Shown here: positions 21,245 through 37,731 of the stretch, one piece after another | Layout of the letters: each line of letters opens with the position of its first letter | Numbering within the stretch: position 1 is the stretch's first letter | Notes under the pieces: model-generated | The model's database searches: none | Seen by the model: the letters and a program-made list of their open reading frames with translations, nothing else | What the model was told of the DNA's origin: nothing | Program-made: the position numbers and the translations under genes | Assembly: GCA_947085325.1 (NCBI GenBank) | Contig: CAMTVY010000010.1 | Span: 121,276-185,275 of the forward strand | DNA: 64,000 nt | Reading direction: 5' to 3' | DNA from: an uncultured Gammaproteobacteria bacterium | GTDB taxonomy: Bacteria > Pseudomonadota > Gammaproteobacteria > SURF-13

Positions 21245-21248
21245 TATC

Positions 21249-21270: not shown

Positions 21271-21282
21271 GTTCACACCGTC

Positions 21283-21519: not shown

Positions 21520-21647
21520 ACTAGCTCCCTGTATCAGGTCATGGTGGAAGACATCCGTCCGCAGTATAGCGCGCCAACCCGCAGAATGATGGTATCAGCC
21601 CCATGCCTGACATCCCGTCCGTCGTAACTCACCGCTCCTCTTCCGCC

Positions 21648-23053: not shown

Positions 23054-23068
23054 CGACAGACCGTAACC

Positions 23069-23512: not shown

Positions 23513-23591
23513 GTGTGCGCCGTACGGTCAGACGTAAAAGTGGGGTGAGGATGGAGTTTTCTTTGTTGCCTGCAGCCGCTAAGCTAGCACC

Positions 23592-24317
23592 ATGATTCAG
23601 GACGAAGACATACGCAGGCAGTATCTGCACGCAATGGGCATAACGCTGTGGGAGCAGCGGCATGCCCGACCACAGGCGGGAGGCAGCATGCCCACAGAGC
23701 AGGCAGACGCTGTGCCGGTGACACAGACGCCGCAGGCGGCTGTAGACAGCACCGATCAGCGTGCATGGGACGAACTCGAGCAGGCGGTGCGTACCTGCAC
23801 CCGCTGTCCGCTGTATGAAACGCGCACGCAGGCGGTGTTCGGGGTCGGTAACAAGCGCGCCGAGTGGATGGTGATCGGAGAGGCGCCGGGTGCCGATGAA
23901 GACCGGCAGGGCGAACCGTTTGTGGGGCGGGCGGGGCAATTGCTCACATCCATGCTGAAGGCCATGGGGCTCACGCGGGAGCAGGTATACATCGCCAATA
24001 TCCTGAAAAGCCGGCCGCCCAACAACCGTGATCCGCTGCCGGAAGAGGTGGCCGCGTGCGAGCCTTATCTCAAACGCCAACTGGAACTGATCCGGCCCAA
24101 AATCATACTCACGGTGGGCCGCATCGCGGCGCAGAACCTGCTCAAGACAGACACCAAAATCGGTGCGCTGCGCGGCCGGCGCCATACCTGCCCCGGCACG
24201 GACATTCCTGTCGTGGTGACCTACCATCCGGCTTACCTGTTGCGGTCGCCGCTGGAGAAGCGCAAGGCCTGGGAAGACCTGAAGTTTGCGCGCCGGGTGC
24301 TGCGAGGTGACGCGTGA
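23592..24317 (+). CDS. uracil-DNA glycosylase, family 4 (4Fe-4S)
   Basis: [36 protein letters not shown]...[12 protein letters not shown] carries the family-4 UDG motifs. Confidence 0.85.
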
Positions 24318-24370
24318 GCCAGGTGCTGTATGCGCCGCTGGAGATGTTTTCTGACACCCATCTGCGCCCC

Positions 24371-24796
24371 ATGACTGCCGAGGACATCGAGGCTGTGATG
24401 GCGATCGAGCTGCGTGCCTACGAGTATCCGTGGAGCGAGGGCATTTTCCATGACTGCCTGAACGTCGGCTACTGTTGCTGGGTGTACAAGACAGAGCATG
24501 CGCTTGCAGGCTATGCGGTAATGTCAGTCGGCGCGGGCGAGTCGCACATCCTGAATCTCTGTGTGCGGCCCGAATCGCGCAGGCGCGGGCTGGGCCGCCG
24601 CCTGCTCAAGCACATGCTGGCTATCGCGCGCGGTCATCAGGCGGATACCGCATTGCTCGAGGTGCGGCCCTCGAACCGCGATGCCATAGCGCTGTATAGG
24701 GCGGTGGGCTTCAATGAGGTCGGCATACGCAAGGCCTATTACCCTGCCGCCGATGGCAAGGAAGATGCCATCATTCTCGCGCTCAGTTTGCTATAA
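24371..24796 (+). CDS. rimI: ribosomal-protein-alanine N-acetyltransferase RimI
   Basis: GNAT fold aligning with E. coli RimI ([10 protein letters not shown]...[18 protein letters not shown]...[16 protein letters not shown]). An alternative GTG start at 24314 would overlap the UDG stop. Confidence 0.8.
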
Positions 24797-24834
24797 TTGG
24801 CGCTACTGATCTTTCGATACCGTTTTATTTCCCG

Positions 24835-26415
24835 ATGTCCGTAATCAGCAGCGAAGCAGCGCGACGCCGCACCTTCGCCATTATTTCCCATCCCGACGCG
24901 GGCAAGACCACGCTCACCGAAAAGCTGTTGCTGTTCGGCGGCGCGATCCAGCTCGCGGGTACGGTGAAGGGGCGCAAGAGCCAGCGCCATGCAACCTCCG
25001 ACTGGATGGAGCTGGAAAAGCAGCGCGGTATTTCCGTCACTTCCTCGGTGATGCAGTTCCCCTATCGCGACAAGATCATCAATCTGCTCGACACGCCGGG
25101 GCACGAGGATTTTTCCGAGGACACCTACCGCACGCTGACCGCAGTCGATTCCGCGCTCATGGTCATAGATTCCGCCAAGGGCGTAGAGGCGCGCACCATC
25201 AAGTTGCTGGAGGTGTGCCGCCTGCGCACCACACCTATCGTCACCTTCATCAACAAGCTCGACCGCGAAGGGCGCGCGCCGGTCGAACTGCTGGATGAAA
25301 TCGAAACCGTGCTCAACATCCGCTGCGCACCGGTAACCTGGCCCATCGGCATGGGCAAGCGCTTCAAGGGCATCTTTCATCTGCCCAACGACAGCGTGCA
25401 CCTGTTTGCGTCTGCGCACGGCGGCAAGATACAGCAGGGCGAAATCATCCAGGGCCTGGACAATCCGCGTCTCGATGAACTGTTCGGCCCCATGGCGGCG
25501 GAACTGCGCGAGGAGATCGAACTGGTCAAGGGCGCCAGTCATGCGTTTAATCTTCAGTCTTTTCTCGCCGGAGAACTGACGCCGGTGTTTTTCGGCTCGG
25601 CGATGAACAATTTCGGCGTGAAAGAATTGCTCGATGCCTTTGTCGAGGTCGCGCCGCCGCCGCAACCGCGCGCCACCACCACGCGCAGCGTGCAGGCCGA
25701 GGAAGAAAAATTCACCGGTTTCGTTTTTAAAATACAGGCCAATATGGATCCGGCGCACCGCGACCGCATCGCGTTTGTGCGCGTGTGCTCGGGCAGTTAT
25801 TCAAAAGGCATGAGAATTCACCACGTGCGCATCGCGCGCGAGGTGCAGATATCGAACGCCATCACCTTCATGGCCGGCGAGCGCGAGCACATCGACGCCG
25901 CCTTTCCCGGCGACATCATCGGCTTGCACAACCACGGCACGATCCAGATCGGCGACACCTTCACCCAGGGCGAAGAACTGAAATTCACCGGCATCCCGTA
26001 TTTCTCGCCCGAGCTGTTCCGCCGCGTGCGGCTGCGCGATCCGTTGCGCATGAAGGCGCTGCAAAAGGGGCTCGATCAACTGTGTGAAGAAGGCGCGACC
26101 CAGCTATTCCGCCCCTTGAGTAGCAATGATCTGATTCTGGGCGCCGTCGGCGTGCTGCAATTCGACGTGGTGGCCTACCGCCTGCAGCACGAGTACGGCG
26201 TGGAATGCGCCTTCGAGAATGTGCAAGTCGCCACTGCGCGCTGGGTGAAGTGTGCCGATGCCAAAAAGCTGGAGGAGTTCCGCCAGAAAGCGTACGACCA
26301 TCTTGCCTTGGACAGCGCGGGCCAGCTCGCCTACATCGCGCCCACACGCATCAATCTGGAGCTGACCATGGAGCGCTGGCCGGAGATCGAGTTCCGCGCC
26401 ACGCGCGAGCATTAG
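24835..26415 (+). CDS. prfC: peptide chain release factor 3
   Basis: [29 protein letters not shown]..., full-length RF3 GTPase. Confidence 0.97.
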
Positions 26416-26419
26416 CAGC

Positions 26420-27364
26420 CTACTTGCGCAGTCCCAGCAGGATGGCCTCGGCGCGTGCGCCGAAATAAACGTATAACCCGAGGCCTACCAGCAGGCCCAC
26501 CGCGGTCAACATCATCCACACGCCCTGCAGTGTCTCCGCGCCGTTGTTCAAGGCGCCCTTGAACATCAGCATCAAGGCCTCGATGGAGACTGCAATCAGG
26601 ATCGCGGCGATGAAGCGGGTGATGGTGCGCCGGGTGGAACTGTGGCGGAGGATATCTTTCTGCATCAACACCTCTTCTTCCAGGATGGTCTTCCCCAGAT
26701 CGAAGATGGCGAGCGCCAGGGTTATGAAGATGATAACGCTGAACGGCTTGAGCTGTATGGCCTCGAGGGTATGTCCTGCCTGAAACAGGGTGGCGAGATC
26801 GGTGAAGGCGGAATACAGCAGCACCGCCACCACGCTGAACAACCCGATCACAATCAGCGCATAAATGGATTTGAACACTGGTTGAAACCTGCTCCGCGAA
26901 CCGTCACCCATGAGAAATTCGATGGTCTTGGCCAGATCAACATCAAGCACCAGATAGCCTGTGGTTTGTGTGTGACTGTCATGGATTTTTATCACCGCCG
27001 TGATGCACAACTTTCTGCTGGCGTTGGATAAATAAGGATCGGTGACGGTGATCTGATTGTTGGCGCGCGCTTGAATAAAGTAAGGACGCTGGCTGCGATC
27101 CTTGCTCTTGCCGTCTTCGATGGCCTGCTTCCAGTAGGGGCTGGTGATGTTGTCACTGGTTTGCATGCCGCTGGCATCGAGAATATAGAGCAGGTCAACA
27201 AAACGATAGAGTTTTGCGAGTGACTGCATCGCCTTGTGTTGCGCCGTGGGGTCATCCATCAGGCACGGTTCCGCGATGCCGGTCAGGATGGAGGCCACCA
27301 TGTCCTGTACGCCTGCGCGATGTTCGTGATAACGCTCGATGACGTTAATGTAATTCATGGTCAA
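26420..27364 (-). CDS. hypothetical membrane protein: N-terminal cytoplasmic Cache/PDC-like domain plus four C-terminal TM helices
   Basis: No N-terminal TM or signal peptide. DPYLSNASRKLCITAVIKI resembles the Cache/PDC core motif. Four hydrophobic helices follow and no output domain is present. GC is lower than the flanks. Confidence 0.5.
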   Translation of the reverse strand: MTMNYINVIERYHEHRAGVQDMVASILTGIAEPCLMDDPTAQHKAMQSLAKLYRFVDLLYILDASGMQTSDNITSPYWKQAIEDGKSKDRSQRPYFIQARANNQITVTDPYLSNASRKLCITAVIKIHDSHTQTTGYLVLDVDLAKTIEFLMGDGSRSRFQPVFKSIYALIVIGLFSVVAVLLYSAFTDLATLFQAGHTLEAIQLKPFSVIIFITLALAIFDLGKTILEEEVLMQKDILRHSSTRRTITRFIAAILIAVSIEALMLMFKGALNNGAETLQGVWMMLTAVGLLVGLGLYVYFGARAEAILLGLRK

Positions 27365-27379
27365 CCCCGGTTATCCTGC

Positions 27380-28672
27380 CTAGAATTGAAAGTCGGCCTG
27401 TAGCCAGAATTTGCTCAAGTCGCGTGACAAGGTGAGATTGCGCGCCACGTTGGTGGCATTGGTGTCGCCGCTGTAGTCGGCATATTTGGCCAGCAGGGTG
27501 AGAGTCTTGTTCACCTTCTTGCTGGCTTGCAGGCCCAGCTCGCTGCCGTAGTCGTAGCCGCCGGTGTCGGAAGAATAGCGGTCGTAACGCGCGAGCCAGT
27601 GGATGCCCTTCCAGCTTTTTTCGAGGGTGACGAAAATATCTTGCAAGCCATCCCTGGGCGTGCCCAGGAACTGATCGGCCCAGCCGTTGAAGGCATGCCC
27701 TGTGGCAAACGGCGTGGCAAAGCCGTATACCCCGTCACCGCCCAATACTTCGTAGTTCAATTTGACCTGGACGGTCTTGACCTCGGCGCCCAGAACCAGA
27801 TTCCTGTAGCTGGCGTCGACGCTGCTTGCACCGTTTTTATAATCACTCTGATTGGCGTACTCCGCAGTGTAGAAAAATTTGGTGCCGCCTTCCGGCTGAT
27901 GCCAGCCGTCAAAACGCAGGCCCAGTGTTTTATTGGACGCGGTGACTGCAATTGGCTGCCCCGGCGCATAGTCCAGCAGGTAGGCATAGCCGATCAGGGT
28001 GCCGGGCTTGAAACCGCGATAGGCGATGTTCAAAAGCTCACCGTTGAGCCTGACGTCACCCTGGCTGCTATTCTGGCCGAAAATACGGTTGGCGTTGGTT
28101 ACGTGAGCAAAGAAGACGTTGACGTTATTGGTCACTGCGGACGTTGCGGAAAAGGCGTCGAATGTCTGTGAATTCTGCCGCCAGCCTACGCTGCCGATGA
28201 AGCGCTGGTTGTCGAGATTGATGATCTGCCGTCCGTACCTGATAGTGGTATCCGCAAGCAGCGTATCGGGGCCTCCTTTGTAACTGATAAAGCCCTGATT
28301 GATCTCGGTGCTCTCCGGATCGGCAACGGTGGGGTACTGGGTCAAGCCGTTGATGGTGTCGTTGTAGCGGTTGCTGCCGAGATTGCGGATGTCTTCAAAC
28401 TGCACAAAGACGCCGAAGCCCTTGAAGTCACCGGTGGCGTAGCCAAGCTGTGTGCGCAGGGTGAAGGCGCTGGCCTTGTCGGACTTGCCTTCCTGGGTGA
28501 CCGACTCGAAGCGCGGACGCAACTGGCCGGAGACCTTGCCTCCGGTAATGGCCTCAAGAAAGGCTCCCTCGGCATGAGCCGCCGGCGATACAAGCAGGCC
28601 CAGCAGGTGAATGAGGCCCACATAATAGACAGGTCTGCGCATGCGGTTTACGGATGGTGTGATGAAGTTCAT
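27380..28672 (-). CDS. outer-membrane porin, alginate-export (AlgE-like) family, adjacent to the nitrate-type ABC transporter
   Basis: Signal peptide ending AHA-EG. Alternating beta-strand pattern and a C-terminal aromatic residue (WLQADFQF). Family assignment is from motif resemblance only. Confidence 0.6.
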   Translation of the reverse strand: MNFITPSVNRMRRPVYYVGLIHLLGLLVSPAAHAEGAFLEAITGGKVSGQLRPRFESVTQEGKSDKASAFTLRTQLGYATGDFKGFGVFVQFEDIRNLGSNRYNDTINGLTQYPTVADPESTEINQGFISYKGGPDTLLADTTIRYGRQIINLDNQRFIGSVGWRQNSQTFDAFSATSAVTNNVNVFFAHVTNANRIFGQNSSQGDVRLNGELLNIAYRGFKPGTLIGYAYLLDYAPGQPIAVTASNKTLGLRFDGWHQPEGGTKFFYTAEYANQSDYKNGASSVDASYRNLVLGAEVKTVQVKLNYEVLGGDGVYGFATPFATGHAFNGWADQFLGTPRDGLQDIFVTLEKSWKGIHWLARYDRYSSDTGGYDYGSELGLQASKKVNKTLTLLAKYADYSGDTNATNVARNLTLSRDLSKFWLQADFQF

Positions 28673-28705
28673 GTAATGAAGCTCCTTGATTATGTTTGGA
28701 TTGGA

Positions 28706-29527
28706 TCAGGCGGCATGCCTGGCATGGCGCTGATAGAGAAATTTCAATACCTCACTGCGCAGGCTCGCGTAACGCGCATCTTCGGCCAGCGCCAAACGGT
28801 TGCGCGGACGCGGCAGGGCGATCTCCAGTACTTGCCCGATCGTGGCCGCAGGGCCGTTGGTCATCATGACGACACGATCGGAGAGCAGCACCGCTTCGTC
28901 CACGTCGTGGGTCACCATCATTACCGTGCAGCCGCTGGCCGCAACGATGCGCATCAGTTCGTCCTGCAGCAGTGCGCGTGTCAGGGCATCCAATGCACCA
29001 AAGGGTTCATCCAGCAGCAGCACCTTGGGTTGCATGGAGAGCGCGCGCGCGATGCCGACGCGCTGCTTCATCCCGCCCGAGATTTCGTGCGGATATTTAT
29101 GCTGCGCCTCCTTGAGGCCGACCAGGTCGAGCACCTGTTCGGTGCGCTCACGCAAACGCGGTTTTTTCTCGGTGCGGCCAAAGACGCGCTCCACCGCGAG
29201 GTACACGTTGCCGAAGCAGGTGAGCCAGGGCAGCAGCGAGTGATTCTGGAACACCACGCCGCGATCCGGGCCGGGCCCGGTGATCTCGCGCCCGTTGCAG
29301 AGCATGATGCCGCCGCTCGCCGGAGTGAGGCCCGCCACAAGATTGAGCAAGGTGGATTTGCCGCAGCCCGAGTGGCCAATAATGGAAACAAACTCACCTT
29401 GTTGAATCGCCAGGTTGATGTCGGTGATGGCCGTGTAGGTGCCCTGTCTGGTGACAAAGACCCGCTCTACATTTTCCAGTTGTATGAATTTTTTGTGCAT
29501 GGCTGTTCCTTTTGGGTCAACTGTCAA
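28706..29527 (-). CDS. ABC transporter ATP-binding protein, nitrate/sulfonate/bicarbonate (NrtD/SsuB/CmpD) family
   Basis: Walker A GHSGCGKST, signature LSGGMKQR, Walker B LLLDEPF. Confidence 0.85.
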   Translation of the reverse strand: MTVDPKGTAMHKKFIQLENVERVFVTRQGTYTAITDINLAIQQGEFVSIIGHSGCGKSTLLNLVAGLTPASGGIMLCNGREITGPGPDRGVVFQNHSLLPWLTCFGNVYLAVERVFGRTEKKPRLRERTEQVLDLVGLKEAQHKYPHEISGGMKQRVGIARALSMQPKVLLLDEPFGALDALTRALLQDELMRIVAASGCTVMMVTHDVDEAVLLSDRVVMMTNGPAATIGQVLEIALPRPRNRLALAEDARYASLRSEVLKFLYQRHARHAA

Positions 29528-30423
29528 TATTCAAAGCGTCTGGCGAGCATGAGCAGCGCCTGTTCGAGTAACAGACCGATGATGCCGACGACAAAAATGG
29601 CGATGATGATGTGCTCGACATTGAGATTGTTCCATTCGTCCCACACCCAGAATCCGATTCCCACGCCGCCGGTCAGCATCTCCGCCGCCACGATGACCAG
29701 CCAAGCCACACCGACGGACAGCCTGACCCCGGTCATCATGTAGGGCAGTACTGCGGGAAACAGGATTTTGCTGAATATCCTGAATTCCGACAGGTTCAAT
29801 ACGCGCGCAACATTGAGGTAGTCGACCGGCACCTTGGTTACGCCGACCGCCGTGTTGATGACCATGGGCCAGATGCTGGAGATGAAGATCACCCAGATCG
29901 CGGCGGGCTGCGCCTCCTTGAATACCAGCAAGCCGATGGGCAGCCACGCCAGCGGCGACACCGGGCGCAGCAGGCTGATGATCGGCGCCGTCATTTTGTT
30001 TAGAAAGCTGAAACGTCCGATCATGAACCCCAGCGGGATGCCGACCAGCGCCGCGAGACCGAAGCCCAGCCCGACCCGTTCGAGGGAGTGCAGGATATTC
30101 CAGCCGATGCCTTGGTCATTCGGCCCGTTGTCGTAGAAGGGATCGCTGAATAACTCGACGGCGGAGTGCCAGGTTTTCACCGGCCCCGGCAGCTGCGGAC
30201 TGTACTCGGCGAGCAGTGACCACCCCAGCAGGAACACGATCAGACCGAGCAGCGGCGGGATCGCCCCTTTGGCCAGCGCATCCATGCCGCCATACAGTGA
30301 GGCCGTCCAGTTTCGCGCAGCCGGCCGTTGGGCCACGTTCGGCGTGGGCTGCTGCACTGAACCGGCGGCGTCATTCCTGCTTATTGGGATGACGTCTTTT
30401 TTCGTCATGGGCACCACGTTCAT
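29524..30423 (-). CDS. ABC transporter permease, NrtB/SsuC family
   Basis: BPD_transp_1 permease fold. Start set at MNVVPMTKKD (ATG 30423), preceded by AAGGAGG-ctcccg. The ORF is open to 30504 but that would overlap the SBP gene. Confidence 0.8.
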   Translation of the reverse strand: MNVVPMTKKDVIPISRNDAAGSVQQPTPNVAQRPAARNWTASLYGGMDALAKGAIPPLLGLIVFLLGWSLLAEYSPQLPGPVKTWHSAVELFSDPFYDNGPNDQGIGWNILHSLERVGLGFGLAALVGIPLGFMIGRFSFLNKMTAPIISLLRPVSPLAWLPIGLLVFKEAQPAAIWVIFISSIWPMVINTAVGVTKVPVDYLNVARVLNLSEFRIFSKILFPAVLPYMMTGVRLSVGVAWLVIVAAEMLTGGVGIGFWVWDEWNNLNVEHIIIAIFVVGIIGLLLEQALLMLARRFEY

Positions 30424-30436
30424 CGGGAGCCTCCTT

Positions 30437-31708
30437 TCAGGCCTTGAGCTGGAAGCTTGCGGCATACTGTTTGGGATTTTTTCCGTCCCATACCGTGCCG
30501 TCAAACAAGGTGCTGCTGCGCAACGGCTCGGCCGGCACCGGGACCTTGAGTTGCTCAGCCGCCTGTTTGTATAAAGCGATTTGATTTATCTGACTCGCCA
30601 CGGCCAGATAATCCGGATCCTCGGTCAGCAAGCCCCAGCGTTTATGCTGTGTCATGAACCACATGCCATCGGATAGATAAGGGAAATTGACGCGGCCGTC
30701 GTTGTAGAATTTCATGTAGTCGGGATCGATCCAGGATTTGCCGAGCCCGTTTTCATACTTGCCCAGCATGCGGCCTTCAATCACCGGATCGGGCGCATTC
30801 ACGTAAGACTTGCGGGCGATGATCTTGGCGACCTGTGGGCGATTAGCGGTGGTGTCTATATATTTCGACGCCTCCAGCACGGCCATGATGAGCGCGCGTG
30901 CCGTGTTGGGATATTTCTGGACAAACTCCAGCGTGGTGCCCAGCACCTTTTCCGGGTGGTCTTTCCAGATGGCCTGCGTGGTGGTGGCGGTGAAGCCGAC
31001 CTGGTCGTAGATCGCGCGCGCATTCCACGGCTCGCCGACACAGTAGCCATCCATGTTGCCTACGCGCATGTTCGCCACCATTTGCGGCGGCGGGATCACG
31101 ATGTTCTTGACGTCCTTGTAAGGATGAATGCCGTGCGCCGCCAGCCAGTAGTTGAGCCACATGGCATGGGTGCCGGTGGGGAATGTCTGTGCGAAGGTAT
31201 ACTCGCTCTTTTCAGTATCAATCAGTTTTTTCAGGCTCGCACCATCCACGGCGCCTTTGTCCTTGAGTGCGTTCGACAGGGTGATGGCCTGGGCGTTGTG
31301 GTTGAGGCCCATCAGGATCGCCATGTCTTTTTTCTGGCCGCCGATGCCGAGCTGCACGCCGTAGATGAGGCCGTACAACACGTGCGCGGCGTCCAGTTCG
31401 CCCAGCATCAGTTTGTCGCGCACCCCGGCCCAGCTCGCCTCTTTGGTCACCGTCACGTTGAGGCCGTATTTTTTGTACAGGCCGAGCTCGCCCGCCATCA
31501 CCACGCTGGCGCAGTCGGTGAGAGGAATAAAACCAATCTTGAGATCGGTTTTTTCCGGTGCATCGGAACCGGCGGCATGCACGCGGCTGCTGAGACCGGC
31601 GGGCATCACGCTGTAGATGCTTGCGGCGAGCAGCGATTTCATGAATTCACGGCGCGTCGTGCCCGTAGTGCTGCCGGTGGGTAGTTCAGTCTGTGTGTCA
31701 TGCGTCAT
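30437..31708 (-). CDS. ABC transporter substrate-binding protein, NrtA/CmpA-like, Tat-exported
   Basis: Twin-arginine signal (TRREFMKSLLAASIYSVMPAGLSSRVHAAG), then an NMT1/NrtA-type fold. Confidence 0.85.
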   Translation of the reverse strand: MTHDTQTELPTGSTTGTTRREFMKSLLAASIYSVMPAGLSSRVHAAGSDAPEKTDLKIGFIPLTDCASVVMAGELGLYKKYGLNVTVTKEASWAGVRDKLMLGELDAAHVLYGLIYGVQLGIGGQKKDMAILMGLNHNAQAITLSNALKDKGAVDGASLKKLIDTEKSEYTFAQTFPTGTHAMWLNYWLAAHGIHPYKDVKNIVIPPPQMVANMRVGNMDGYCVGEPWNARAIYDQVGFTATTTQAIWKDHPEKVLGTTLEFVQKYPNTARALIMAVLEASKYIDTTANRPQVAKIIARKSYVNAPDPVIEGRMLGKYENGLGKSWIDPDYMKFYNDGRVNFPYLSDGMWFMTQHKRWGLLTEDPDYLAVASQINQIALYKQAAEQLKVPVPAEPLRSSTLFDGTVWDGKNPKQYAASFQLKA

Positions 31709-31742
31709 GGCAAAATCTCCTCATCAAGTTATACATAGCGCC

Positions 31743-31821
31743 AAAAAAAAGCGCCCATCCCGCAAGGATTGCTCCCGCAGAATGGACGCCGTTGTCCATG
31801 CGCAAGCCGGCATTGGCTTGC
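31743..31821 (-). promoter_or_regulatory. candidate ANTAR-responsive antitermination leader upstream of the nrtA-like gene
   Basis: In the RNA sense there are two adjacent 6-7 bp hairpins with hexaloops AAUGCC and AACGGC (A at position 1, G at position 4). They are separated by 2 nt, then about 30 nt of GC-rich sequence and a U8 tract 35 nt before the start codon. Confidence 0.55.
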
Positions 31822-31896
31822 TGGTACTTTAGTTACGGAACCAGCCCTTCGTTGGGAGGGTTCTTGAATCTGCTGCGCTTAAGCCGACTTACGACT

Positions 31897-32484
31897 TCAC
31901 ATCAATAATTCCGCCGCTGTAATGACCGTCTGCGCCACTTCCGTCATGCGCAGGTTGCGTGTCATGGCCAGCTTGCGCAGGGCTTGATAGGCCTCGTCTT
32001 CCGAACACTGGCGCTGTTTCATGACCATCCCCTTGGCGCGCTCGATCAGCTTGCGCTCCTCCAGCGCAGTAGTGGCCTTGGTCAACTCACCGCGCAGGGC
32101 CTGAAACTCCTGAAAGCGCGCGATGGCGACATCGATGATGGGTTTAATGCGTTCACTGCCGAGGCCGTTGACGATATAGGCGCTGACGCCGGCATGCATC
32201 GCGAGGCGAATATTTTCCTCGTCGCCGTCATGGGTGAACATCACCAGCGGCAGGTCACGACCGATACAGCACATGTGTTCCAGGGTGTCGCGGTCGGGTG
32301 ACTCCATGTCGATGATGATGACGTCCGGCTGAATCTCCGCAACGCGCGCGCGCAGGTCGTCATGGGGCGCGATGTGCGCGGCCACCGCATGGCCTGCCTG
32401 ACGCAAGGCCTGCTCCACTGCTCCGGCCCGGTGCGGGCTTTCATCCACCAGCAGCACACGTAACGCTTTAGACGGTTTATTCAT
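31897..32484 (-). CDS. nasT: ANTAR-domain response regulator (NasT/AmiR family antiterminator)
   Basis: CheY-like receiver (LLVDESP...DVIIIDMESPDRD...VMFT) plus a C-terminal ANTAR domain (ERKLIERAKGMVMKQRQCSEDEAYQALRKLAMTRNLRMTEVAQ). Start at MNKPSKALRVLLVDE; the longer ORF from 32580 would encode through a terminator hairpin. Confidence 0.85.
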   Translation of the reverse strand: MNKPSKALRVLLVDESPHRAGAVEQALRQAGHAVAAHIAPHDDLRARVAEIQPDVIIIDMESPDRDTLEHMCCIGRDLPLVMFTHDGDEENIRLAMHAGVSAYIVNGLGSERIKPIIDVAIARFQEFQALRGELTKATTALEERKLIERAKGMVMKQRQCSEDEAYQALRKLAMTRNLRMTEVAQTVITAAELLM

Positions 32485-32504
32485 ATTCAGCCGGGCGGCC
32501 AGCA

Positions 32505-32548
32505 GGTATAAAAAGAACCCACTCTCCGAGGAGAGGCGGAGAGTGGGT
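32505..32548 (-). terminator. intrinsic-terminator-like hairpin between the two ANTAR regulator genes
   Basis: In the RNA sense: ACCCACUCUCCG-ccucuccu-CGGAGAGUGGGU (a 12-bp perfect stem) followed by UCUUUUUA. It ends 21 nt before the nasT start codon. Confidence 0.5.
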
Positions 32549-32611
32549 GTGAGCACCAGACATGCGCCCCACATAGCCAACTGAAGTTATTCGCATCATC
32601 ATCGACCTGAT

Positions 32612-33193
32612 TCAAGCATGCGCCAGTAAACTCTGTTCCATGACGATGAAGTCCTGCGCTACATCCACGGTGCGTTTGTTGCGAGTCAGGGCGAGCCTGC
32701 GCAGCGCCTGCTGGGCGCCGTTCCGGGAGATGCGGGCTTTCTGCATGAGGATGGCCGCAGCCTGCCCTATAAGTCTGCGTTCAGCCGCAGTCGTGTGGGT
32801 CTGTTCCAGTTGATTGAGCAGAAGCTGTGTTTCATTGAAGCGGATGATGGCAACATCCATGATCGGCTTTACCCGCTCCGGCCACAGTCCATCGACAATA
32901 TAGGCGCTGATGCCGGCTTTCAGTGCCGCGTTGATAGTCGGCGCATCGCCCTGGCGGGTAAACATGACGATCGGGCATGGCTGGCCAAGATAAATGCGTT
33001 CAATCTGGCGCAGTTGCCTGTGACTAACGTGTTCCAGCGCAAACACCAGTATGTCGGCTTCAATGGTTTTGAGTGCGAGCTGTAGTTCCGGGATGCTGGT
33101 GACGAGCTCGACTATCTCGTGTCCATGCTTGTGCGTGGCGGACTGTAGCAGTTCCGCATCTTCTGCATTTTCCACGACTAGCGCGATGCGCAT
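32612..33193 (-). CDS. second ANTAR-domain regulator with degenerate (pseudo-)receiver domain
   Basis: ANTAR domain (AERRLIGQAAAILMQKARISRNGAQQALRRLALTRNKRTVDVAQ). Receiver-like N-terminus with Ala at the expected phospho-acceptor position (ILVFALEH vs IIIDME in the neighbour). Confidence 0.8.
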   Translation of the reverse strand: MRIALVVENAEDAELLQSATHKHGHEIVELVTSIPELQLALKTIEADILVFALEHVSHRQLRQIERIYLGQPCPIVMFTRQGDAPTINAALKAGISAYIVDGLWPERVKPIMDVAIIRFNETQLLLNQLEQTHTTAAERRLIGQAAAILMQKARISRNGAQQALRRLALTRNKRTVDVAQDFIVMEQSLLAHA

Positions 33194-33397
33194 GAAAGTC
33201 TCCCGATCAAGTGTTGTCGGGGAAGTATCAGCAATAGCCGTGCCAACCAGAGAAAGCGTATTATTTTCAGTGAATTAAAGGTTGTATGGTGCTCGGTCTG
33301 GGAACCGTTGCGCACCATTCTGCGTGTGTCAGGGAGCGAGTTGAATCATTTTGGGGCGGAATGTGTTCGTGCAGTCTTGCCCAAGGCTGCGCAGGCG

Positions 33398-33700
33398 TTA
33401 GTGGTACTTTAGCAGCCAGCTTCGGAATTCATCGGCGGGTAAGGGGCAGGAGAAGAAGTAGCCCTGTGCCTTGTCGCAACCGAGTGCAATCAGCCGGTCA
33501 AGAGTTTCCTGAGTCTCCACGCCTTCGGCCACGACTTGCAGGTTGAGGTTGTGCGCCAGCTCAATAGTAGAGCGTACGATGGCGGCGTTGTCGTCATCGG
33601 TTACCATGTCTATCACAAAAGACTTGTCCACCTTGATTTCATCTACCGGCAGCTTCTTGAGGTAACTCAGAGACGAGTAACCTGTGCCTAAGGTCGTCAA
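33398..33700 (-). pseudogene. 3' remnant of an EAL-domain (c-di-GMP phosphodiesterase) gene
   Basis: Encodes only the last ~100 aa of an EAL domain ([28 protein letters not shown]...VAEGVETQETL...) and lacks the upstream catalytic half. The frame hits a stop about 16 codons upstream, exactly where the prfC-3' copy begins. Paralogous to the C-terminus of the intact GGDEF-EAL gene at 33902-36157. Confidence 0.7.
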
Positions 33701-33856
33701 TGGAGAGGCATATACCCATCTGGCGTTGGACGGTGTGGGTGATCTGGCCTATATCGCTCCTACGCGTATCAATCTGGAGCTGACCATGGAGCGCTGGCCG
33801 GACATCGAATTCCGCGCCACCCGCGAGCATTAGCAGGCCTGCTCACGCAGTGAAGC
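33700..33856 (+). repeat. imperfect second copy of the prfC 3' end (last ~45 codons, the stop and ~25 nt downstream); right boundary of the inserted module
   Basis: About 85% nucleotide identity to 26298-26435. Encodes ...[41 protein letters not shown], against ...[41 protein letters not shown] at the real prfC end. Confidence 0.85.
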
Positions 33857-33901
33857 TGTAGTGATAGTTTGACGGTGGACTGCAACGGATGGATGCAGCA
33901 G

Positions 33902-36157
33902 TTAGCGAAGCTCGAATTTGAACGTCTGTATCCGCTCCCAGCTCTGGACCAACCCGGCAAACTCATCGGCCGGGAGCGGCTTGCTGAAGTAGTAGCCTTG
34001 GGCCATGTCGCAGCCCTCCTCGCGCAGAAATTTGAGCTGCTCGAAGGTTTCCACTCCCTCCGCGATGACTTTCATGTTGAGCGTGCGGGCCATGGCGATG
34101 ATGGTCTTTGCTATCGCGGCATCATTGGGATCAGTGGCGATGTCACGTACGAAGCTGCGGTCTATTTTTAAGAAATCTATGGGACAGCGCTTGAGGGTAC
34201 TTAGGGATGAGTGGCCCGTACCAAAATCATCAAGCGAGCAGGACACGCCGTCCGCTTTTAGCGCCTCCAGGCACTGGATGGCATCCTCTGGGTCGCGCAT
34301 CAGCATGCTCTCGGTTAATTCAAGATCGAGTCTGGATGCCGCGAGGCCGCTCTCCTCGAGCGCCTTCCTGACCGTCCGCAGGAAATCTTTTTGTCGCAAC
34401 TGCCGGGCCGACACATTCACCGCTAGGCGCAGTGGGGGGAGGCCCATCTGCTGCAATATCCGTGTCTGCGCGCATGCAGCTTGCAGTACCCACGCGCCGA
34501 TTGGAGCAATCAGCCCGGTCTCCTCGGCCACGGGGATGAACTCCAGTGGCGTGATGAGTCCTTCCTCGGGTTGGTGCCAGCGCAGCAGTGCCTCCATGCC
34601 GATGATTTCTCCGGTACGGAGAACCACTATCGGCTGGTAGTGCAGCAGGAACTCTCCTCTCTCTAGGGCGCGGCGCAGACCGCTTTCCAGAGTCAGACGT
34701 CGGCTGGCACGGTCATGGAGATCGGGTGTGTAGAGTCTGAAGGTGTTACGCCCAGACTCCTTGGCATGATACATGGCGGTGTCGGCACTTTTGAGGAGCC
34801 CTTCCGCATCGTCTTCATCCAGCGGGTACAGGGTGATGCCGATGCTTACGCTCACATGTATCTCTCGGCCATCAACAATGAAAGGAAGATCCAGCAGCTG
34901 CTGGATCTTCCGAACCATACCGGCGACTTCGCCCACGTGATGAATCTCGGGGAGCACTATGGCAAATTCGTCTCCTCCGAGGCGGGCAATGGTATCACTC
35001 GCCCGGAGGCCGGTGCCGAGCTGCGTGGCTACCATCTTAAGCAGCTTGTCACCCGCGCTGTGTCCGAAGGTATCGTTGACATATTTAAAGTAATCGATGT
35101 CTATGAATAGCACGGCGACAATGTAATTCCCGCGGTCGGCATCGCTTATGATCTGCCGCAGGCGGTCATCAAGCAGCTGTCGGTTGGGAAGCCCGGTCAG
35201 AGAGTCATACAGCGCAAGCTGTTTGAGGCGCTCCTCGGCCTGTTTGCGCTCGGTGATGTCGCTCATGAGACAGTAGTGACCAGAGAAATTATTACGCTCG
35301 TCGTAGATTCCGACCATCACTGCATGCATGTAGAAAATCGAACCATCTTTGCGCAGTGCTCTGGCTTCCACATCCGCTTTTCCGCTCGCGCGCAAGCGCT
35401 GGTAGGCGGCCTGCATCAGGCCAAGGTCATCCGGCTGCACTGTCAGCGATCGCTCGGCGTCGATCAGGTCTTCTGGCGCGTAACCGACCATGTCGGCGTA
35501 GGACTTGTTGACCATACGAAAGCGCCCCTCTACATCCAGCCGCGCGATCCCCTCAACAGCATGTTCCAGTGCGGTGGCCGTTTCACGCAGCGCCTGTTCC
35601 ATCTTGGCACGTTCGGCAATCTCGGCGCGTAATAAATAATTTTGCTGTGAAAGGTGGAATGCGCGCGCGAGTTCCGCGCTGTACAATTCATGCTGTGCCC
35701 ACACAGCCAGCTCGTGCAGTGTGTCGAGTTGTGTCTGGTCCAGCTGGCGTGGGCGGTAGTCTGCGATGCACAAGGTGCCGATCCGGCTGTCGTTCGGTGC
35801 GCTGATCGGGAAGCCGGCGTAGAAACGGATATGCGGCGCTCCTGTCACCAACGGATTGTCAGCGAAGCGTTTGTCGAGCCGCGCGTCGGGAACGACCATG
35901 GCACGATCTCCCAGAATGGTGTGCCCGCAAAATGAAATACTGCGTGGCGTCTCGGAGGCTTGCAGGCCCTGGCAGGATTTGAACCACTGGCGTTCCGCGT
36001 CCACCAGGGTAATGAGCGCGATCGGTACATCGAACAGCCGGGTGGCGAAGCGCGTGATGCGGTCAAAGCGCTCCTCGGGAGGTGAATCCATGATGGACAG
36101 GGCATGAAGCGCGGCCAGCCTGATCGGTTCATCTGGCGGCAGCGGCGGTTCTTTCAT
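33902..36157 (-). CDS. GAF-PAS-GGDEF-EAL multidomain c-di-GMP signalling protein
   Basis: GAF (FDVPIALITLVDAERQWFKS), PAS, GGDEF (RLGGDEFAIVL), EAL (EALLRW...DDFGTGHSSLSTL). Confidence 0.9.
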   Translation of the reverse strand: MKEPPLPPDEPIRLAALHALSIMDSPPEERFDRITRFATRLFDVPIALITLVDAERQWFKSCQGLQASETPRSISFCGHTILGDRAMVVPDARLDKRFADNPLVTGAPHIRFYAGFPISAPNDSRIGTLCIADYRPRQLDQTQLDTLHELAVWAQHELYSAELARAFHLSQQNYLLRAEIAERAKMEQALRETATALEHAVEGIARLDVEGRFRMVNKSYADMVGYAPEDLIDAERSLTVQPDDLGLMQAAYQRLRASGKADVEARALRKDGSIFYMHAVMVGIYDERNNFSGHYCLMSDITERKQAEERLKQLALYDSLTGLPNRQLLDDRLRQIISDADRGNYIVAVLFIDIDYFKYVNDTFGHSAGDKLLKMVATQLGTGLRASDTIARLGGDEFAIVLPEIHHVGEVAGMVRKIQQLLDLPFIVDGREIHVSVSIGITLYPLDEDDAEGLLKSADTAMYHAKESGRNTFRLYTPDLHDRASRRLTLESGLRRALERGEFLLHYQPIVVLRTGEIIGMEALLRWHQPEEGLITPLEFIPVAEETGLIAPIGAWVLQAACAQTRILQQMGLPPLRLAVNVSARQLRQKDFLRTVRKALEESGLAASRLDLELTESMLMRDPEDAIQCLEALKADGVSCSLDDFGTGHSSLSTLKRCPIDFLKIDRSFVRDIATDPNDAAIAKTIIAMARTLNMKVIAEGVETFEQLKFLREEGCDMAQGYYFSKPLPADEFAGLVQSWERIQTFKFELR

Positions 36158-36279
36158 GTCATTGCAGCATCGTCGGTAGCTCTATTCTCGGGCGATAATA
36201 GACGATGAGATGGCAGATCGGCTAGGAATTTGTTGAAGAAAGTCCCTTCACGGACTTTACGTTGTGATCAAAACTACCT

Positions 36280-37674
36280 TCAGAGTTGTCCCTCGTGCGC
36301 AGCCTTATGCACCAATGCGTCGAATTCCTCGTGGCTCATCAGGCCATGCTCTGCCACGATGTCGCGCACGGGTTTGCCGGTCTTCTCGGATTCCTGCGCG
36401 ATCTTCGCCGCTTGCTCGTAGCCTATGCCTGGGTTGAGCAGCGTGGCCAGCGCTACGCTTTGGTGCAGGAAATTCTTGCAGCGTTCACGGTCGACCGTCA
36501 GCCCTTTGAGATTCAGTTCAGTTGCGGCGTTGATGGCGTTGGTAAGCCAGTCCATCGCGTCAAACAGCGCCGAGCCGAGTGCGGGCATCATCACGTTCAA
36601 CTCCAGTTGCCCGGCCTGGGTCATGGCGGCAATGGCGGCATCCTGCCCGATGACCTGGTAGCACACCTGGTTCAGCATCTCGAACATCACCGGGTTCACC
36701 TTGCCCGGCATGATGCTGGAGCCGGGCTGCACGGCGGGCAGAATAATTTCGCCCAGCCCCGTGCGCGGGCCGGAGGCGAGCAGGCGCATGTCGTTGGCGA
36801 TGCGCGTGAGTTCGAGCGCCAGCGCGCGGATTGCATTGGAAAGGTGTTGCAGGTCGAGCATCGACTGCATCTGTGCAGCGAGATCAGGCGCCGGGCGCAG
36901 CGGTTCGCCGCTCAGGCGCGCAAGTTCCGCCGCGACCTTTTCGATGTAGCCCGGCGCGGTGTTGAGGCCGGTACCTGCGGCACTGCCACCGAGGCCGATA
37001 TCGCACAATGGCAGGCGTGTCTCCTGCAGCCGCTCGGCGCAGCGCGTGAGCGTCCAGGCATAGGCGTTGAATTCGCGCCCTACGGTGGTGGGCACGGCAT
37101 CCTGCAAATGGGTGCGCGCGCTCTTGACCGTAGCTGTTTCGCGCGCACCGATGCGTGCGTACTCACTCGCCATGCCATGCACGGCTTTGATGAGGCGCGG
37201 CAGCTTGGCGAGCGCCGCGAGACGGATGGCGGTCGGGATGGTGTCGTTGGTGCTTTGCCCCATGTTGACGTGATCGTTGGGGTGCACCGGACGGTAAGTG
37301 CCGCGTTCAACGCCGAGTGTGGCGTTGGCAAGGTTGGAAATCACTTCGTTGCTGTTCATGTTATGGCTGGTGCCGGCGCCGGCCTGAAAACGATCCACTA
37401 CGAATTGATCGAGATAGCTGCCTGCCAGAATGTCATCGCAGGCCGCCAGGATGGCGCGCGCCGGCGTATCTTCCAGTTGCCCACACTGCTGGTTGGCAAC
37501 CGCTGCCGCGCGTTTGACGCGCACATGGGCCAGTACGAAGTCACGATCAGGGCCGCGCCCGCTGATCGGGAAATTGGCCACGGCGCGCGCGGTTTGAACG
37601 CCATACCAGGCGTGGGCGGGAACCTTCAGTTCGCCCAGGCTGTCTCTCTCGGTGCGGAAGCTGATATCATTCAT
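36280..37674 (-). CDS. aspA: aspartate ammonia-lyase (class II fumarase/aspartase family)
   Basis: GSSIMPGKVNP signature. GQSTNDTIPT and the overall alignment are closer to AspA than to FumC. Confidence 0.8.
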   Translation of the reverse strand: MNDISFRTERDSLGELKVPAHAWYGVQTARAVANFPISGRGPDRDFVLAHVRVKRAAAVANQQCGQLEDTPARAILAACDDILAGSYLDQFVVDRFQAGAGTSHNMNSNEVISNLANATLGVERGTYRPVHPNDHVNMGQSTNDTIPTAIRLAALAKLPRLIKAVHGMASEYARIGARETATVKSARTHLQDAVPTTVGREFNAYAWTLTRCAERLQETRLPLCDIGLGGSAAGTGLNTAPGYIEKVAAELARLSGEPLRPAPDLAAQMQSMLDLQHLSNAIRALALELTRIANDMRLLASGPRTGLGEIILPAVQPGSSIMPGKVNPVMFEMLNQVCYQVIGQDAAIAAMTQAGQLELNVMMPALGSALFDAMDWLTNAINAATELNLKGLTVDRERCKNFLHQSVALATLLNPGIGYEQAAKIAQESEKTGKPVRDIVAEHGLMSHEEFDALVHKAAHEGQL

Positions 37675-37731
37675 GCAGGTTTAGTCCGTGCGGGCGGCGA
37701 GTTCTGCCGAAATGGGTGTGTGGGAGGCTGT

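What the first reader, a model, noticed from the sequence alone, without database searches (positions are those of the whole stretch)
26298..33856. A 7.4 kb module inserted at the 3' end of prfC, bracketed by diverged direct copies of the prfC terminus
The last ~135 nt of prfC plus ~25 nt beyond its stop occur twice in the same orientation, at 26298-26435 (functional, in-frame end) and 33700-33856. The two copies are about 85% identical; the core ATCAATCTGGAGCTGACCATGGAGCGCTGGCCGGA is identical in both. The 7.4 kb between them is a nitrate-transport and regulator cargo with lower GC at its cache-like/porin end, not housekeeping genes. Just beyond the second copy lies the stop of a convergent GGDEF-EAL gene, which in relatives presumably abuts prfC directly. 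This is the arrangement expected when an integrative element targets the 3' end of a conserved gene and supplies a replacement terminus. The 15% divergence of the copies argues against a recent in situ duplication. No integrase or IS gene is present, so the mechanism is unresolved.
Basis: seen in the sequence. Interest (0 to 1): 0.7.

Follow-up and report, generated by a model that had tools for sequence, protein, structure and literature searches.

The report
Recombination scar duplicating the prfC end
The repeated end of the release-factor-3 gene is real, but it looks like a leftover from recombination between two versions of this chromosome region in related bacteria, not the edge of a mobile element carrying nitrate-uptake genes.

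Summary
The last ~126 nt of prfC plus ~18 nt beyond its stop occur twice, 7,418 bp apart. They are 86% identical over 121 nt and share an identical 35-nt core.

The "inserted 7.4 kb module" reading is only partly right. The predicted empty site exists: in L166, prfC directly abuts the GGDEF-EAL gene. But outgroup relatives (L178, L179-181, L168/L172/L177) carry the same nitrate block (dCache, porin, nrtCBA, nasT) in this prfC-fumC neighbourhood, and none that covers prfC has a second prfC end. L178 also has the identical 4-nt prfC/dCache junction. So the block is ancestral here, and copy A is not a junction.

X is intact at that position in L174/L175. The joint (33708-33726) is a patch where X and prfC are 14/17 alike. 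No integrase, tRNA or IS is present.

Best reading: a "long" allele (prfC-nitrate block-X-fumC) recombined with a "short" allele (prfC-GGDEF-EAL 751-fumC), through one homologous crossover and one microhomology joint. This is homology-facilitated illegitimate recombination, or a recircularised fragment plus a single crossover. Which allele was resident is unresolved.

It is ordinary in kind, and a clean natural example.

The parts
24835..26415 (+). prfC (RF3), intact, 526 aa. It groups with L167 from ~24550 onward (dS 0.26), not with L166 (dS 0.66).
   Evidence: Pfam; three-way sites; dS
24500..24600 (.). Phylogenetic breakpoint inside the GNAT acetyltransferase gene. To its left the window groups with L166 (99 vs 29 informative sites); to its right it groups with L167 (193 vs 62).
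26296..26435 (+). Repeat copy A: the functional prfC terminus plus ~18 nt that are also the last codons of the convergent dCache gene. It is collinear with outgroup L178, so it is not a junction.
26350..26384 (.). 35-nt core identical to 33768-33802.
26420..27364 (-). dCache_1 periplasmic-sensor-like protein (314 aa). Its stop lies 4 nt from the prfC stop. It is conserved next to the porin in all nitrate-block relatives.
27380..28672 (-). Outer-membrane porin (Alginate_exp family).
28706..29527 (-). Nitrate ABC transporter ATPase (TIGR01184, 350 bits, above cut-off).
29524..30504 (-). Nitrate ABC transporter permease (TIGR01183, above cut-off). The true start is probably further downstream: 299 aa in L174.
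30437..31708 (-). NrtA/CmpA-type nitrate-binding protein (NMT1_2, E = 3e-105).
31750..31790 (-). Terminator-like hairpin (17-bp stem plus T run) in the nasT-nrtA leader. Probably the ANTAR antitermination target (inference).
31897..32580 (-). Response-regulator-ANTAR protein (NasT-like).
32612..33193 (-). ANTAR-only protein (193 aa). From here to 33724 the window is at background divergence from L174 (dS 0.7), unlike the nitrate genes (dS 0.08-0.17).
33398..33726 (-). 3' fragment (about 100 codons) of GGDEF-EAL gene X, a pseudogene. It is 92% aa identical to the X gene of L167 and 86.5% nt identical to the intact 769-aa X of L174/L175, which sits at this position next to the ANTAR gene.
33708..33726 (.). 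Illegitimate joint. X homology runs in from the left to ~33726 and prfC homology from the right to ~33708. In this overlap the parental proxies (X GCGTACGCCCATGTGGC; prfC GCGTACGACCATCTTGC) are 14/17 alike.
33708..33833 (+). Repeat copy B: a prfC pseudogene fragment of the last ~41 codons plus the stop. Right of the core it is 31/31 identical to L166. Left of the core it is 62-72% identical to every sampled prfC.
33834..33901 (.). 68-nt spacer, 95.6% identical to the prfC/GGDEF-EAL spacer of the short-allele relative L166. Its first ~18 nt resemble the dCache 3' end that follows copy A.
33902..36157 (-). GAF-PAS-GGDEF-EAL gene, 751 aa, intact. dS to L166 is 0.25, against 0.65 for the neighbouring fumC. 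Its first 519 nt are shared (91%) with X(769) of L174; the rest is ~45-49% aa identical to the X alleles.
36158..36286 (.). Intergenic region homologous to that of L166 and unrelated to that of L174/L175.
36280..37674 (-). fumC, the conserved right anchor of the interval in all relatives.

Best explanation
The second prfC terminus is a scar of recombination between two structural alleles of the prfC-fumC interval that coexist in a group of related, uncultured gammaproteobacteria.

**The two alleles**
- The long allele is ancestral: prfC -> <- dCache-porin-nrtCBA-nasT-ANTAR <- GGDEF-EAL 'X' <- fumC.
- The short allele lacks the nitrate block: prfC -> 68 nt <- GGDEF-EAL '751' <- fumC.
- The window is a hybrid of the two.

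**Favoured course of events**
- A long-allele chromosome took up DNA from a short-allele relative.
- The right end recombined homologously, in the shared 5' part of the GGDEF-EAL gene or at the fumC boundary.
- The left end, which happened to lie ~41 codons before the end of the donor's prfC, was joined illegitimately to the resident X gene at a short microhomology.
- This replaced about 1.5-2.1 kb of X with about 1.9-2.6 kb carrying the 751 allele.
- It left the last ~100 codons of X and a hitch-hiking prfC tail (copy B) as pseudogene scraps.

This is homology-facilitated illegitimate recombination (HFIR).

**Shown:** the repeat, the truncated X, the microhomology joint, the ancestral position of the nitrate block, the existence of both parental alleles, and the mosaic ancestry.

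**Inferred:** the direction, the uptake route and RecA dependence.
For: **Both parental alleles exist.**
- Short allele: L166.
- Long allele with intact X(769) between the ANTAR gene and fumC: L174/L175.

**The nitrate block is ancestral here.** L178 has it between prfC and fumC with the same 4-nt stop-to-stop junction. L168, L172 and L177 have it beside fumC. L179-181 have it downstream of prfC.

**The duplication is unique to the window.** It alone has two prfC ends among the 122 loci that matched a prfC terminus.

**The joint is at a 14/17 microhomology** between two 5'-truncated genes placed head to head. Reported HFIR junctions show 3-10 bp of microhomology, and the deletion is about the size of the insertion (PMC3240628).

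**Both scraps are recent pseudogenes.** dN/dS is 0.10 for copy B against copy A, and 0.06 for the X fragment against L174.

**For the favoured direction**
- ANTAR2 and the X fragment sit at background divergence from L174 (dS 0.68-0.74), like fumC (0.65). That suggests they are resident.
- 751 has dS 0.25 to L166 and the spacer is 95.6% identical to it, against 0.65 for the adjacent fumC, cysG and GH3 genes. That suggests the segment came in more recently.
- The promoter region of 751 is of the L166 type.

**No mobile-element features.** No recombinase, tRNA or IS. No plasmid carries the module.
Against: **Direction is not settled.**
- The window also switches from L166-like to L167-like at ~24550. 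That is what an incoming long-allele fragment anchored in prfC would produce.
- UDG is as L166-like (dS 0.26) as 751 is.

**Copy B is not uniformly L166-like.** Its left 60 nt are only 62% identical to L166. An L166-like donor does not predict this.

**No sampled genome is the actual parent.** The best proxies differ by 3-14%.

**Every scenario needs at least one extra recombination event.** One example is the 96-98% patch shared with L174 over 26860-32500.

**Linkage across the 35-nt core of copy B rests on the window assembly alone.** The independent k = 31 contigs stop there.
Confidence: 0.45

Rival explanations
1. Same two parental alleles, opposite direction. A short-allele genome (prfC next to GGDEF-EAL 751, as in L166) re-acquired the ancestral nitrate block from a long-allele relative.

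Two routes are possible:
- (a) HFIR, with the homologous crossover at ~24550 and the illegitimate joint between donor X and resident prfC codon ~485.
- (b) A linear fragment [prfC tail-nitrate block-X 3' end] was recircularised at the X::prfC microhomology and integrated by a single RecA crossover in the 35-nt core, duplicating the prfC tail.

For: - There is a sharp switch from L166-like to L167/L174-like ancestry at ~24550, and L166-like sequence resumes right of the joint (spacer 95.6%, 751 dS 0.25). One import of 24550-33724 would explain both.
- In E. coli, most HFIR-like products were recircularised fragments integrated by a single crossover. These gave 109-950 bp duplications of the homologous end (PMC3240628). 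That is the topology seen here, with a 126-140 bp duplication.
- Route (b) predicts a break in ancestry inside copy B at the core. That break is seen: left 62%, right 100% identical to L166. It also explains why the core is exactly identical in both copies.
Against: - A single donor would have to be mosaic: nitrate genes at dS ~0.1 to L174, but ANTAR2 and the X fragment at dS ~0.7. The X fragment is an outgroup to both L167 and L174 (31 sites where the window stands alone, against 9 and 11).
- Route (b) predicts that copy A is chimeric too, but both halves of copy A are L167-like.
- Route (a) puts the illegitimate joint inside the region homologous to the anchor. That is atypical, and there is no accompanying deletion.
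- 751 (dS 0.25) differs from fumC (dS 0.65), so the right flank is not uniform 'native' sequence.
Confidence: 0.3
2. A 7.4 kb integrative element carrying the nitrate genes inserted site-specifically into the 3' end of prfC, supplying a replacement terminus. The two copies are attL and attR, and the integrase has been lost or acts in trans.
For: - An empty-site relative exists (L166).
- The direct repeats have an exactly identical 35-nt core.
- prfC is a known target of the SXT/R391 ICE family, though at its 5' end (PMC2791158).
Against: - The block is at this locus in outgroups that have no second prfC end, and the prfC/dCache junction is conserved down to the 4-nt gap.
- The sequence next to copy B is a truncated chromosomal gene that is intact in L174/L175.
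- There is no recombinase, excisionase, relaxase, IS or tRNA.
- GC3 of the cargo is close to that of the flanks.
- No plasmid or similar element carries the module.
Confidence: 0.03
3. An in situ tandem duplication of [prfC codon ~485 ... X 3' end] in a long-allele ancestor created the X::prfC joint. The second nitrate block was then deleted. Later homologous imports made the two prfC ends and the two GGDEF-EAL 3' ends differ.
For: - A b::a joint at a microhomology is the signature of a tandem duplication.
- The ~18 nt after copy B's stop resemble the dCache 3' end, as if a second dCache had been deleted there.
- The locus is demonstrably mosaic.
Against: - It needs at least four events.
- The X fragment and the 3' end of 751 are only 56% aa identical. 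Replacing one of them by homologous recombination would itself require a short-allele donor.
- Both scraps show strong purifying-selection signatures (dN/dS 0.06-0.10), so they were functional genes in separate lineages until recently.
Confidence: 0.07
4. Assembly chimera. Reads from co-occurring long-allele and short-allele strains were joined wrongly.
For: - Related strains with both alleles exist in metagenomes.
- The linkage across the 35-nt core of copy B could not be checked independently, because the Logan contigs stop there.
Against: - The unusual joint (X fragment to the left part of copy B) is spanned by 100% identical contigs from three independent samples, SRR4188484, ERR3478710 and ERR4904396. 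It has only a ~5-17 nt microhomology, too short to mislead a k >= 31 assembler.
- The right part of copy B through 751 to fumC is likewise independently assembled in two of these samples.
- Ordinary reads of 100 nt or more span a 35-nt core.
Confidence: 0.05

Closest known systems
Homology-facilitated illegitimate recombination (HFIR), described in Streptococcus pneumoniae, Acinetobacter baylyi and Pseudomonas stutzeri (summarised in PMC3240628)
   Same: - One end of the exchanged segment lies in homologous sequence, and the other is a joint between unrelated sequences at a short microhomology.
- Under the favoured direction, ~1.9-2.6 kb came in and ~1.5-2.1 kb was lost, matching the 'deletion of similar size' rule.
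- No dedicated recombinase is involved.
   Different: - It is inferred here from a natural genome, not observed experimentally.
- The donor is a diverged orthologous locus with a different gene content, so the hitch-hiking donor end happens to duplicate a gene that lies 7.4 kb away.
- The direction and RecA dependence are untested.
Recircularised linear fragment plus single crossover, giving a partial duplication of the homologous end (E. coli conjugation experiments, PMC3240628)
   Same: - The product has the insert flanked by a direct duplication of part of the homologous segment: 109-950 bp there, 126-140 bp here.
- It also has an illegitimate closure joint inside the insert.
   Different: - The homology available would be only ~126 nt at ~86% identity, with a 35-nt identical stretch.
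- Copy A does not show the predicted chimerism.
Orphan 3' gene ends left by allele displacement in T6SS effector-immunity and Rhs loci (PMC5361080)
   Same: An incoming allele with a conserved 5' part and a variable 3' part displaces the resident one and pushes a remnant 3' end downstream. HFIR is the proposed mechanism there too. In the window, the GGDEF-EAL gene has a shared 5' 519 nt and alternative 3' cassettes, and an orphan 3' end of the displaced allele remains.
   Different: - The genes are cyclic-di-GMP signalling genes, not toxins.
- There is a single remnant, not an array.
- A scrap of an unrelated housekeeping gene (prfC) was co-inserted.
SXT/R391 integrative conjugative elements, which integrate into prfC (PMC2791158)
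   Same: The target gene, prfC, is the same.
   Different: SXT uses a tyrosine recombinase and inserts in the 5' end of prfC. Here the repeat is at the 3' end, there is no Int, no conjugation genes, and the 'cargo' is ancestral chromosomal DNA.

Membership tests
Integrase-mediated integrative element / genomic island at a gene 3' end | A site-specific recombinase gene at one end of the element | tested here: not met
   Pfam on all eight ORFs between the repeats and on the flanking ORFs found no integrase, transposase or excisionase.
Integrase-mediated integrative element / genomic island at a gene 3' end | Both repeat copies are element-chromosome junctions, so synteny with element-free relatives breaks at both | tested here: not met
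   Relative to L166, both copies look like junctions. But outgroup L178 is collinear straight through copy A into dCache...nrtA. The copy B side is a truncated resident gene.
Integrase-mediated integrative element / genomic island at a gene 3' end | An empty site in relatives | tested here: met
   In L166, prfC is followed directly by GGDEF-EAL 751 and fumC.
Integrase-mediated integrative element / genomic island at a gene 3' end | Cargo is foreign to the locus: absent from outgroups and atypical in composition | tested here: not met
   The block is present at the locus in L178, L179-181, L168, L172, L177 and L174. GC3 is 0.74-0.76, against mostly 0.70-0.83 for flanking genes.
SXT/R391 ICE | Int_SXT tyrosine recombinase and integration at the 5' end of prfC | tested here: not met
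   The repeat is at the 3' end and there is no integrase. The family definition is from PMC2791158.
HFIR product | An illegitimate joint between unrelated sequences with 3-10 bp of microhomology | tested here: met
   At 33708-33726, the X and prfC proxies are 14/17 alike, and CCCAT is shared exactly by the window and the X proxy. The criterion is from PMC3240628.
HFIR product | The other end lies in homologous sequence, detectable as a change of ancestry | tested here: inconclusive
   There are two candidate crossovers: ~24550 and the 751/fumC boundary (dS 0.25 against 0.65). Which one belongs to this event is unresolved.
HFIR product | Loss of recipient DNA of similar size to the insertion | tested here: inconclusive
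   This is met if the long allele was resident: L174 positions 1050-2515 are replaced by window 33725-35639. It is not met in the opposite direction.
HFIR product | RecA dependence and DNA uptake by transformation | not testable with these tools
   Requires genetics in a cultured relative.
Recircularised fragment + single crossover | A direct duplication of part of the homologous segment flanking the insert | tested here: met
   A 126-140 bp duplication flanks 7.3 kb. Reported sizes are 109-950 bp.
Recircularised fragment + single crossover | Both repeat copies are chimeric, donor on one side of the crossover and recipient on the other | tested here: inconclusive
   Copy B shows contrasting halves (62% against 100% identical to L166). 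Copy A does not (92% and 97% identical to L167). The stretches are only 31-60 nt long.
Tandem duplication | Near-identical copies and a second copy of the intervening genes | tested here: not met
   The copies are 86% identical with dN/dS 0.10. There is a single nitrate block. The X fragment is only 56% aa identical to the 3' end of 751.

The most novel reading that the evidence does not exclude
The prfC-tail repeats may make the nitrate-uptake block an integrase-free, RecA-driven cassette.

- Recombination in the 35-nt core would excise a 7,418-bp circle and regenerate exactly the short allele seen in L166.
- The prfC end of L166 does look like copy-A-left plus copy-B-right: 77% against 62% identical on the left, and 31/31 against 28/31 on the right.
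- The circle, or DNA from lysed cells, could re-enter short-allele genomes by a single crossover.
- The long, short and hybrid alleles would then be interconverting states of a population-level gain/loss switch for nitrate assimilation.
Probability: 0.1. Interest if true: 0.55.

Novelty: new member of a known kind. Interest (0 to 1): 0.3.

Why it matters
**A caution for island-calling.** A housekeeping-gene terminus repeated around accessory-looking genes, together with an empty site in a relative, mimics an integrative element. Here it is a by-product of host recombination between structural alleles. Adding outgroups reversed the polarity: the 'cargo' is ancestral and the 'empty site' is a deletion.

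**A natural, base-pair-resolved example.** It shows an illegitimate microhomology joint coupled to homologous exchange in uncultured environmental gammaproteobacteria, with both parental allele types still in circulation.

**The prfC-fumC interval appears to be a recombination hot spot.**
- dS ranges from 0.08 to 0.8 within 12 kb.
- Nitrate-uptake genes are gained or lost there.
- GGDEF-EAL sensor cassettes (GAF-GAF against GAF-PAS) are swapped behind a shared 5' module.

Tried and rejected
**Scans for close relatives gave little.**
- The genome contigs and metagenome-contig scans with RF3 returned only distant relatives (83% aa or less). None kept the downstream context. The useful loci came from exact-protein look-ups of close RF3 and NrtA homologues.
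- Exact look-ups of the window's own RF3 and dCache proteins found nothing.

**dCache and the EAL fragment are not two halves of one split gene.** Rejected: the fragment belongs to a GAF-GAF-GGDEF-EAL gene (X) unrelated to dCache.

**The EAL fragment is not a copy of the neighbouring 751 gene.** Rejected: 56% aa identity.

**Composition as evidence of foreignness is uninformative.** GC3 of the nitrate genes is close to that of the flanks.

**The spacer after copy B has no other recognisable source.** Apart from the in-register ~18 nt resembling the dCache end, there is no significant similarity to other parts of the locus.

**No source lineage was found for the left part of copy B.** Its best match is copy A itself, at 84% including the core.

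**The direction of the event stayed unresolved.** I tried sliding identity, three-way informative sites and dS. The result was a mosaic with no unique solution.

**The plasmid search found only generic nrtABC similarity**, at about 68%.

Full report
**1. The observation**

- The repeat finder reports one two-copy family, 26298-26418 and 33716-33836: 121 nt, 86% identical, spacing 7,418.
- The pairwise alignment extends it about 18 nt past the stop codon, to 26435 and 33853. It contains a 35-nt stretch (26350-26384 = 33768-33802) that is identical in both copies.
- Copy A is the in-frame end of a complete 526-aa RF3.
- Copy B reads in frame as ...[41 protein letters not shown], preceded by stop codons.
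- The two copies differ at 14 synonymous and 7 non-synonymous positions (dN/dS 0.10). They therefore diverged as working genes in separate lineages, and copy B has been a pseudogene only briefly.

- a dCache protein;
- an Alginate_exp-type porin;
- nitrate ABC ATPase and permease (TIGR01184 and TIGR01183, above cut-off);
- an NrtA-like binding protein;
- a response-regulator-ANTAR protein;
- an ANTAR-only protein.

The compositional argument is weak. Total GC dips at the dCache/porin end, but GC3 (0.74-0.76) is close to that of the flanking genes.

**2.

Directly left of copy B, on the minus strand, 33398-33700 encodes the last ~100 residues of an EAL domain (profile positions 153-236 of 236, E = 3e-31).
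- It is not a copy of the neighbouring 751-aa GAF-PAS-GGDEF-EAL gene (56% aa identity).
- So the left edge of copy B is a head-to-head joint of two 5'-truncated genes.

**3. Independent support for the structure**

Contigs 100% identical to the window, from other sequencing runs, cover two stretches:
- the ANTAR gene, the EAL fragment and the left part of copy B (SRR4188484, ERR3478710, ERR4904396);
- the right part of copy B, 751 and fumC (ERR3478710, ERR4904396).

Each stops inside the 35-nt core. That is expected of a k = 31 graph in which the core occurs twice (my knowledge of Logan's k). The odd joint is therefore not an artefact of one assembly. Only the linkage across the core itself rests on the window assembly.

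**4. Relatives**

The broad scans with RF3 gave only distant genomes (83% aa or less) without conserved downstream context. Exact-protein look-ups of close RF3 and NrtA homologues were decisive.

| Locus | Relation to window | Arrangement | Calls |
|---|---|---|---|
| L166 (GCA_030680605.1) | RF3 94% aa | UDG-GNAT-prfC -> 68 nt <- the same 751-aa GGDEF-EAL <- fumC. Collinear with window 14812-26432 and 33718-41469.
| L167 | RF3 96% aa | prfC -> 28 nt <- a different GGDEF-EAL gene, X. Its 3' end matches the window's EAL fragment (88% nt, 92% aa). | 27, 28, 30 |
| L174/L175/L176 | NrtA 99% aa; one strain in three samples | fumC, intact X (769 aa, GAF-GAF-GGDEF-EAL), ANTAR, NasT, NrtABC, porin, dCache. 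No prfC scrap and no 751. | 34, 36, 60 |
| L178 (GCA_041695115.1) | ~79% nt | UDG-GNAT-prfC -> <- dCache-porin-nrtCBA-nasT-fumC. Collinear with window 31856-23796, same 4-nt gap between the prfC and dCache stops, one prfC end, no GGDEF-EAL gene. | 39, 43 |
| L168, L172, L177 | outgroups | The nitrate block lies beside fumC. | 32, 33, 38 |
| L179-181 | outgroups | The nitrate block lies downstream of prfC, behind a further 6.4 kb insert. | 45 |

Among the 122 fetched loci that matched a prfC terminus, only the window has two.

**5. Consequences**

- The nitrate block is ancestral in the prfC-fumC interval. Copy A is not an insertion junction.
- The short arrangement (L166, and with the X allele L167) is best read as a deletion allele. 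The ~18 nt after the prfC stop in L166 and in copy B still resemble the dCache 3' end.
- The window is a hybrid. Up to 33726 it is long-allele DNA ending inside X. From 33708 on it is short-allele DNA starting ~41 codons before the end of prfC.
- In the 33708-33726 overlap, the X proxies read GCGTACGCCCATGTGGC and the prfC proxy reads GCGTACGACCATCTTGC, which is 14/17 alike. This is a microhomology joint.
- There is no recombinase, IS or tRNA in or beside the block. The nearest tRNAs are at 12.6 kb and 54.8 kb.
- No plasmid carries the module.

**6. Mechanism**

The structure is what a recombination event produces when it has one homologous crossover and one illegitimate microhomology joint. 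Two documented routes give it:
- **HFIR.** It shows 3-10 bp of microhomology at the joint, and an insertion accompanied by a deletion of similar size (PMC3240628).
- **A recircularised linear fragment integrated by a single crossover.** In E. coli this accounted for most HFIR-like products and duplicated 109-950 bp of the homologous end.

A natural analogue is the displacement of T6SS and Rhs 3' cassettes, which leaves orphan 3' ends (PMC5361080). The window's GGDEF-EAL gene fits that pattern:
- X(769) and 751 share their first 519 nt at 91%;
- beyond that they have no nucleotide similarity, and overall they are ~49% aa identical.

**7. Direction**

Synonymous divergence shows a strongly mosaic locus.

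| Comparison | dS |
|---|---|
| Background between the four lineages (fumC, cysG, GH3; UDG and prfC in non-sister pairs) | 0.62-0.8 |
| Window vs L174, nitrate genes | 0.08-0.17 |
| Window vs L167, prfC | 0.26 |
| Window vs L166, 751 | 0.25 |
| Window vs L166, UDG | 0.26 |
| Window vs L174, ANTAR2 and X fragment | 0.68-0.74 |

The spacer after copy B is 95.6% identical to that of L166.

*For a resident long allele with incoming 751 (favoured, 0.45):*
- ANTAR2 and the X fragment sit at background distance, like fumC. The X fragment is an outgroup to both L167 and L174.
- 751 and its non-coding flanks are much closer to L166 than the adjacent fumC is.
- The sizes fit canonical HFIR: ~1.9-2.6 kb in, ~1.5-2.1 kb out.

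*For a resident short allele that re-acquired the nitrate block (0.30):*
- There is a sharp ancestry switch at ~24550 in the GNAT gene: 99:29 L166-like to its left, 193:62 L167-like to its right.
- L166-like sequence lies on both outer sides.
- The exactly identical core, and the contrast inside copy B (left 62%, right 100% identical to L166), are what a single crossover in the core predicts.

Each scenario needs at least one extra exchange. The left 60 nt of copy B match no sampled prfC well. I could not resolve the direction.

**8. Other rivals**

- An integrase-borne element is contradicted by L178 and by the truncated resident gene (0.03).
- An in situ tandem duplication plus deletion needs many steps, and the purifying-selection signature of both scraps argues against it (0.07).
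- An assembly chimera is unlikely, given the independently assembled joint (0.05).

**9. Verdict**

The empty site and the non-duplicative origin hold. The integrative-element reading and the foreign-cargo reading do not.
- The feature is a recombination scar of a known kind, in a locus that appears to be a hot spot for allele exchange.
- It is of modest interest as a clean natural example and as a warning for island prediction.

Noticed in passing
window 53020-54706 (with tRNA-Thr at 54780-54855): Three ORFs with low GC (0.52-0.57) and low GC3 (0.52-0.63) have no Pfam hit and lie directly beside a tRNA-Thr gene. This could be a small island at a tRNA.
   Followed up: no
window 31709-31896 (hairpin 31750-31790, minus strand): The nasT-nrtA leader holds a strong terminator-like hairpin (17-bp stem plus T run), the expected target of ANTAR antitermination. 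This intergenic stretch is also the most diverged piece (71-84%) inside the otherwise 96-98% identical window/L174 patch.
   Followed up: partly
window 35640-36157 vs L174 532-1049: The 751-aa GAF-PAS-GGDEF-EAL gene and the 769-aa GAF-GAF-GGDEF-EAL gene X share their first 519 nt at 91% and then lose all nucleotide similarity. dS in this 5' module is ~0.25-0.31 between all three lineages. This suggests sensor/output cassettes are swapped behind a common 5' module.
   Followed up: partly
window 34884-34911: A perfect 28-nt palindrome (GGAAGATCCAGCAGCTGCTGGATCTTCC) lies inside the coding region of the 751-aa GGDEF-EAL gene.
   Followed up: no
L179 11600-17990 (also L180, L181): In another lineage (RF3 87% aa), 6.4 kb is inserted between prfC and the dCache gene of the nitrate block. 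It carries two GT2 glycosyltransferases, a dCache-HAMP-GGDEF protein and a solute-binding protein, and has no prfC-end repeat. The prfC/dCache junction seems to be a recurrent insertion point.
   Followed up: partly
L167 3713-5110: The X gene next to prfC in L167 is split into two ORFs, so it is a probable pseudogene. L167 lacks the nitrate block, making it a second kind of short allele.
   Followed up: partly
L177 14348-16014: In L177 the dCache gene is reduced to a 93-aa ORF. It is followed by a PIN-domain toxin gene and several small ORFs instead of prfC.
   Followed up: no
window 21200-22400: The window and L166 drop to 71-84% identity here, and the ABC ATPase gene has dS 0.87. Neighbouring genes are at 88-94% identity. 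This is another likely recombination patch in the left flank.
   Followed up: no
window 58374-58914: A cluster of four tRNA genes (Lys, His, Arg, Pro) lies on the minus strand.
   Followed up: no
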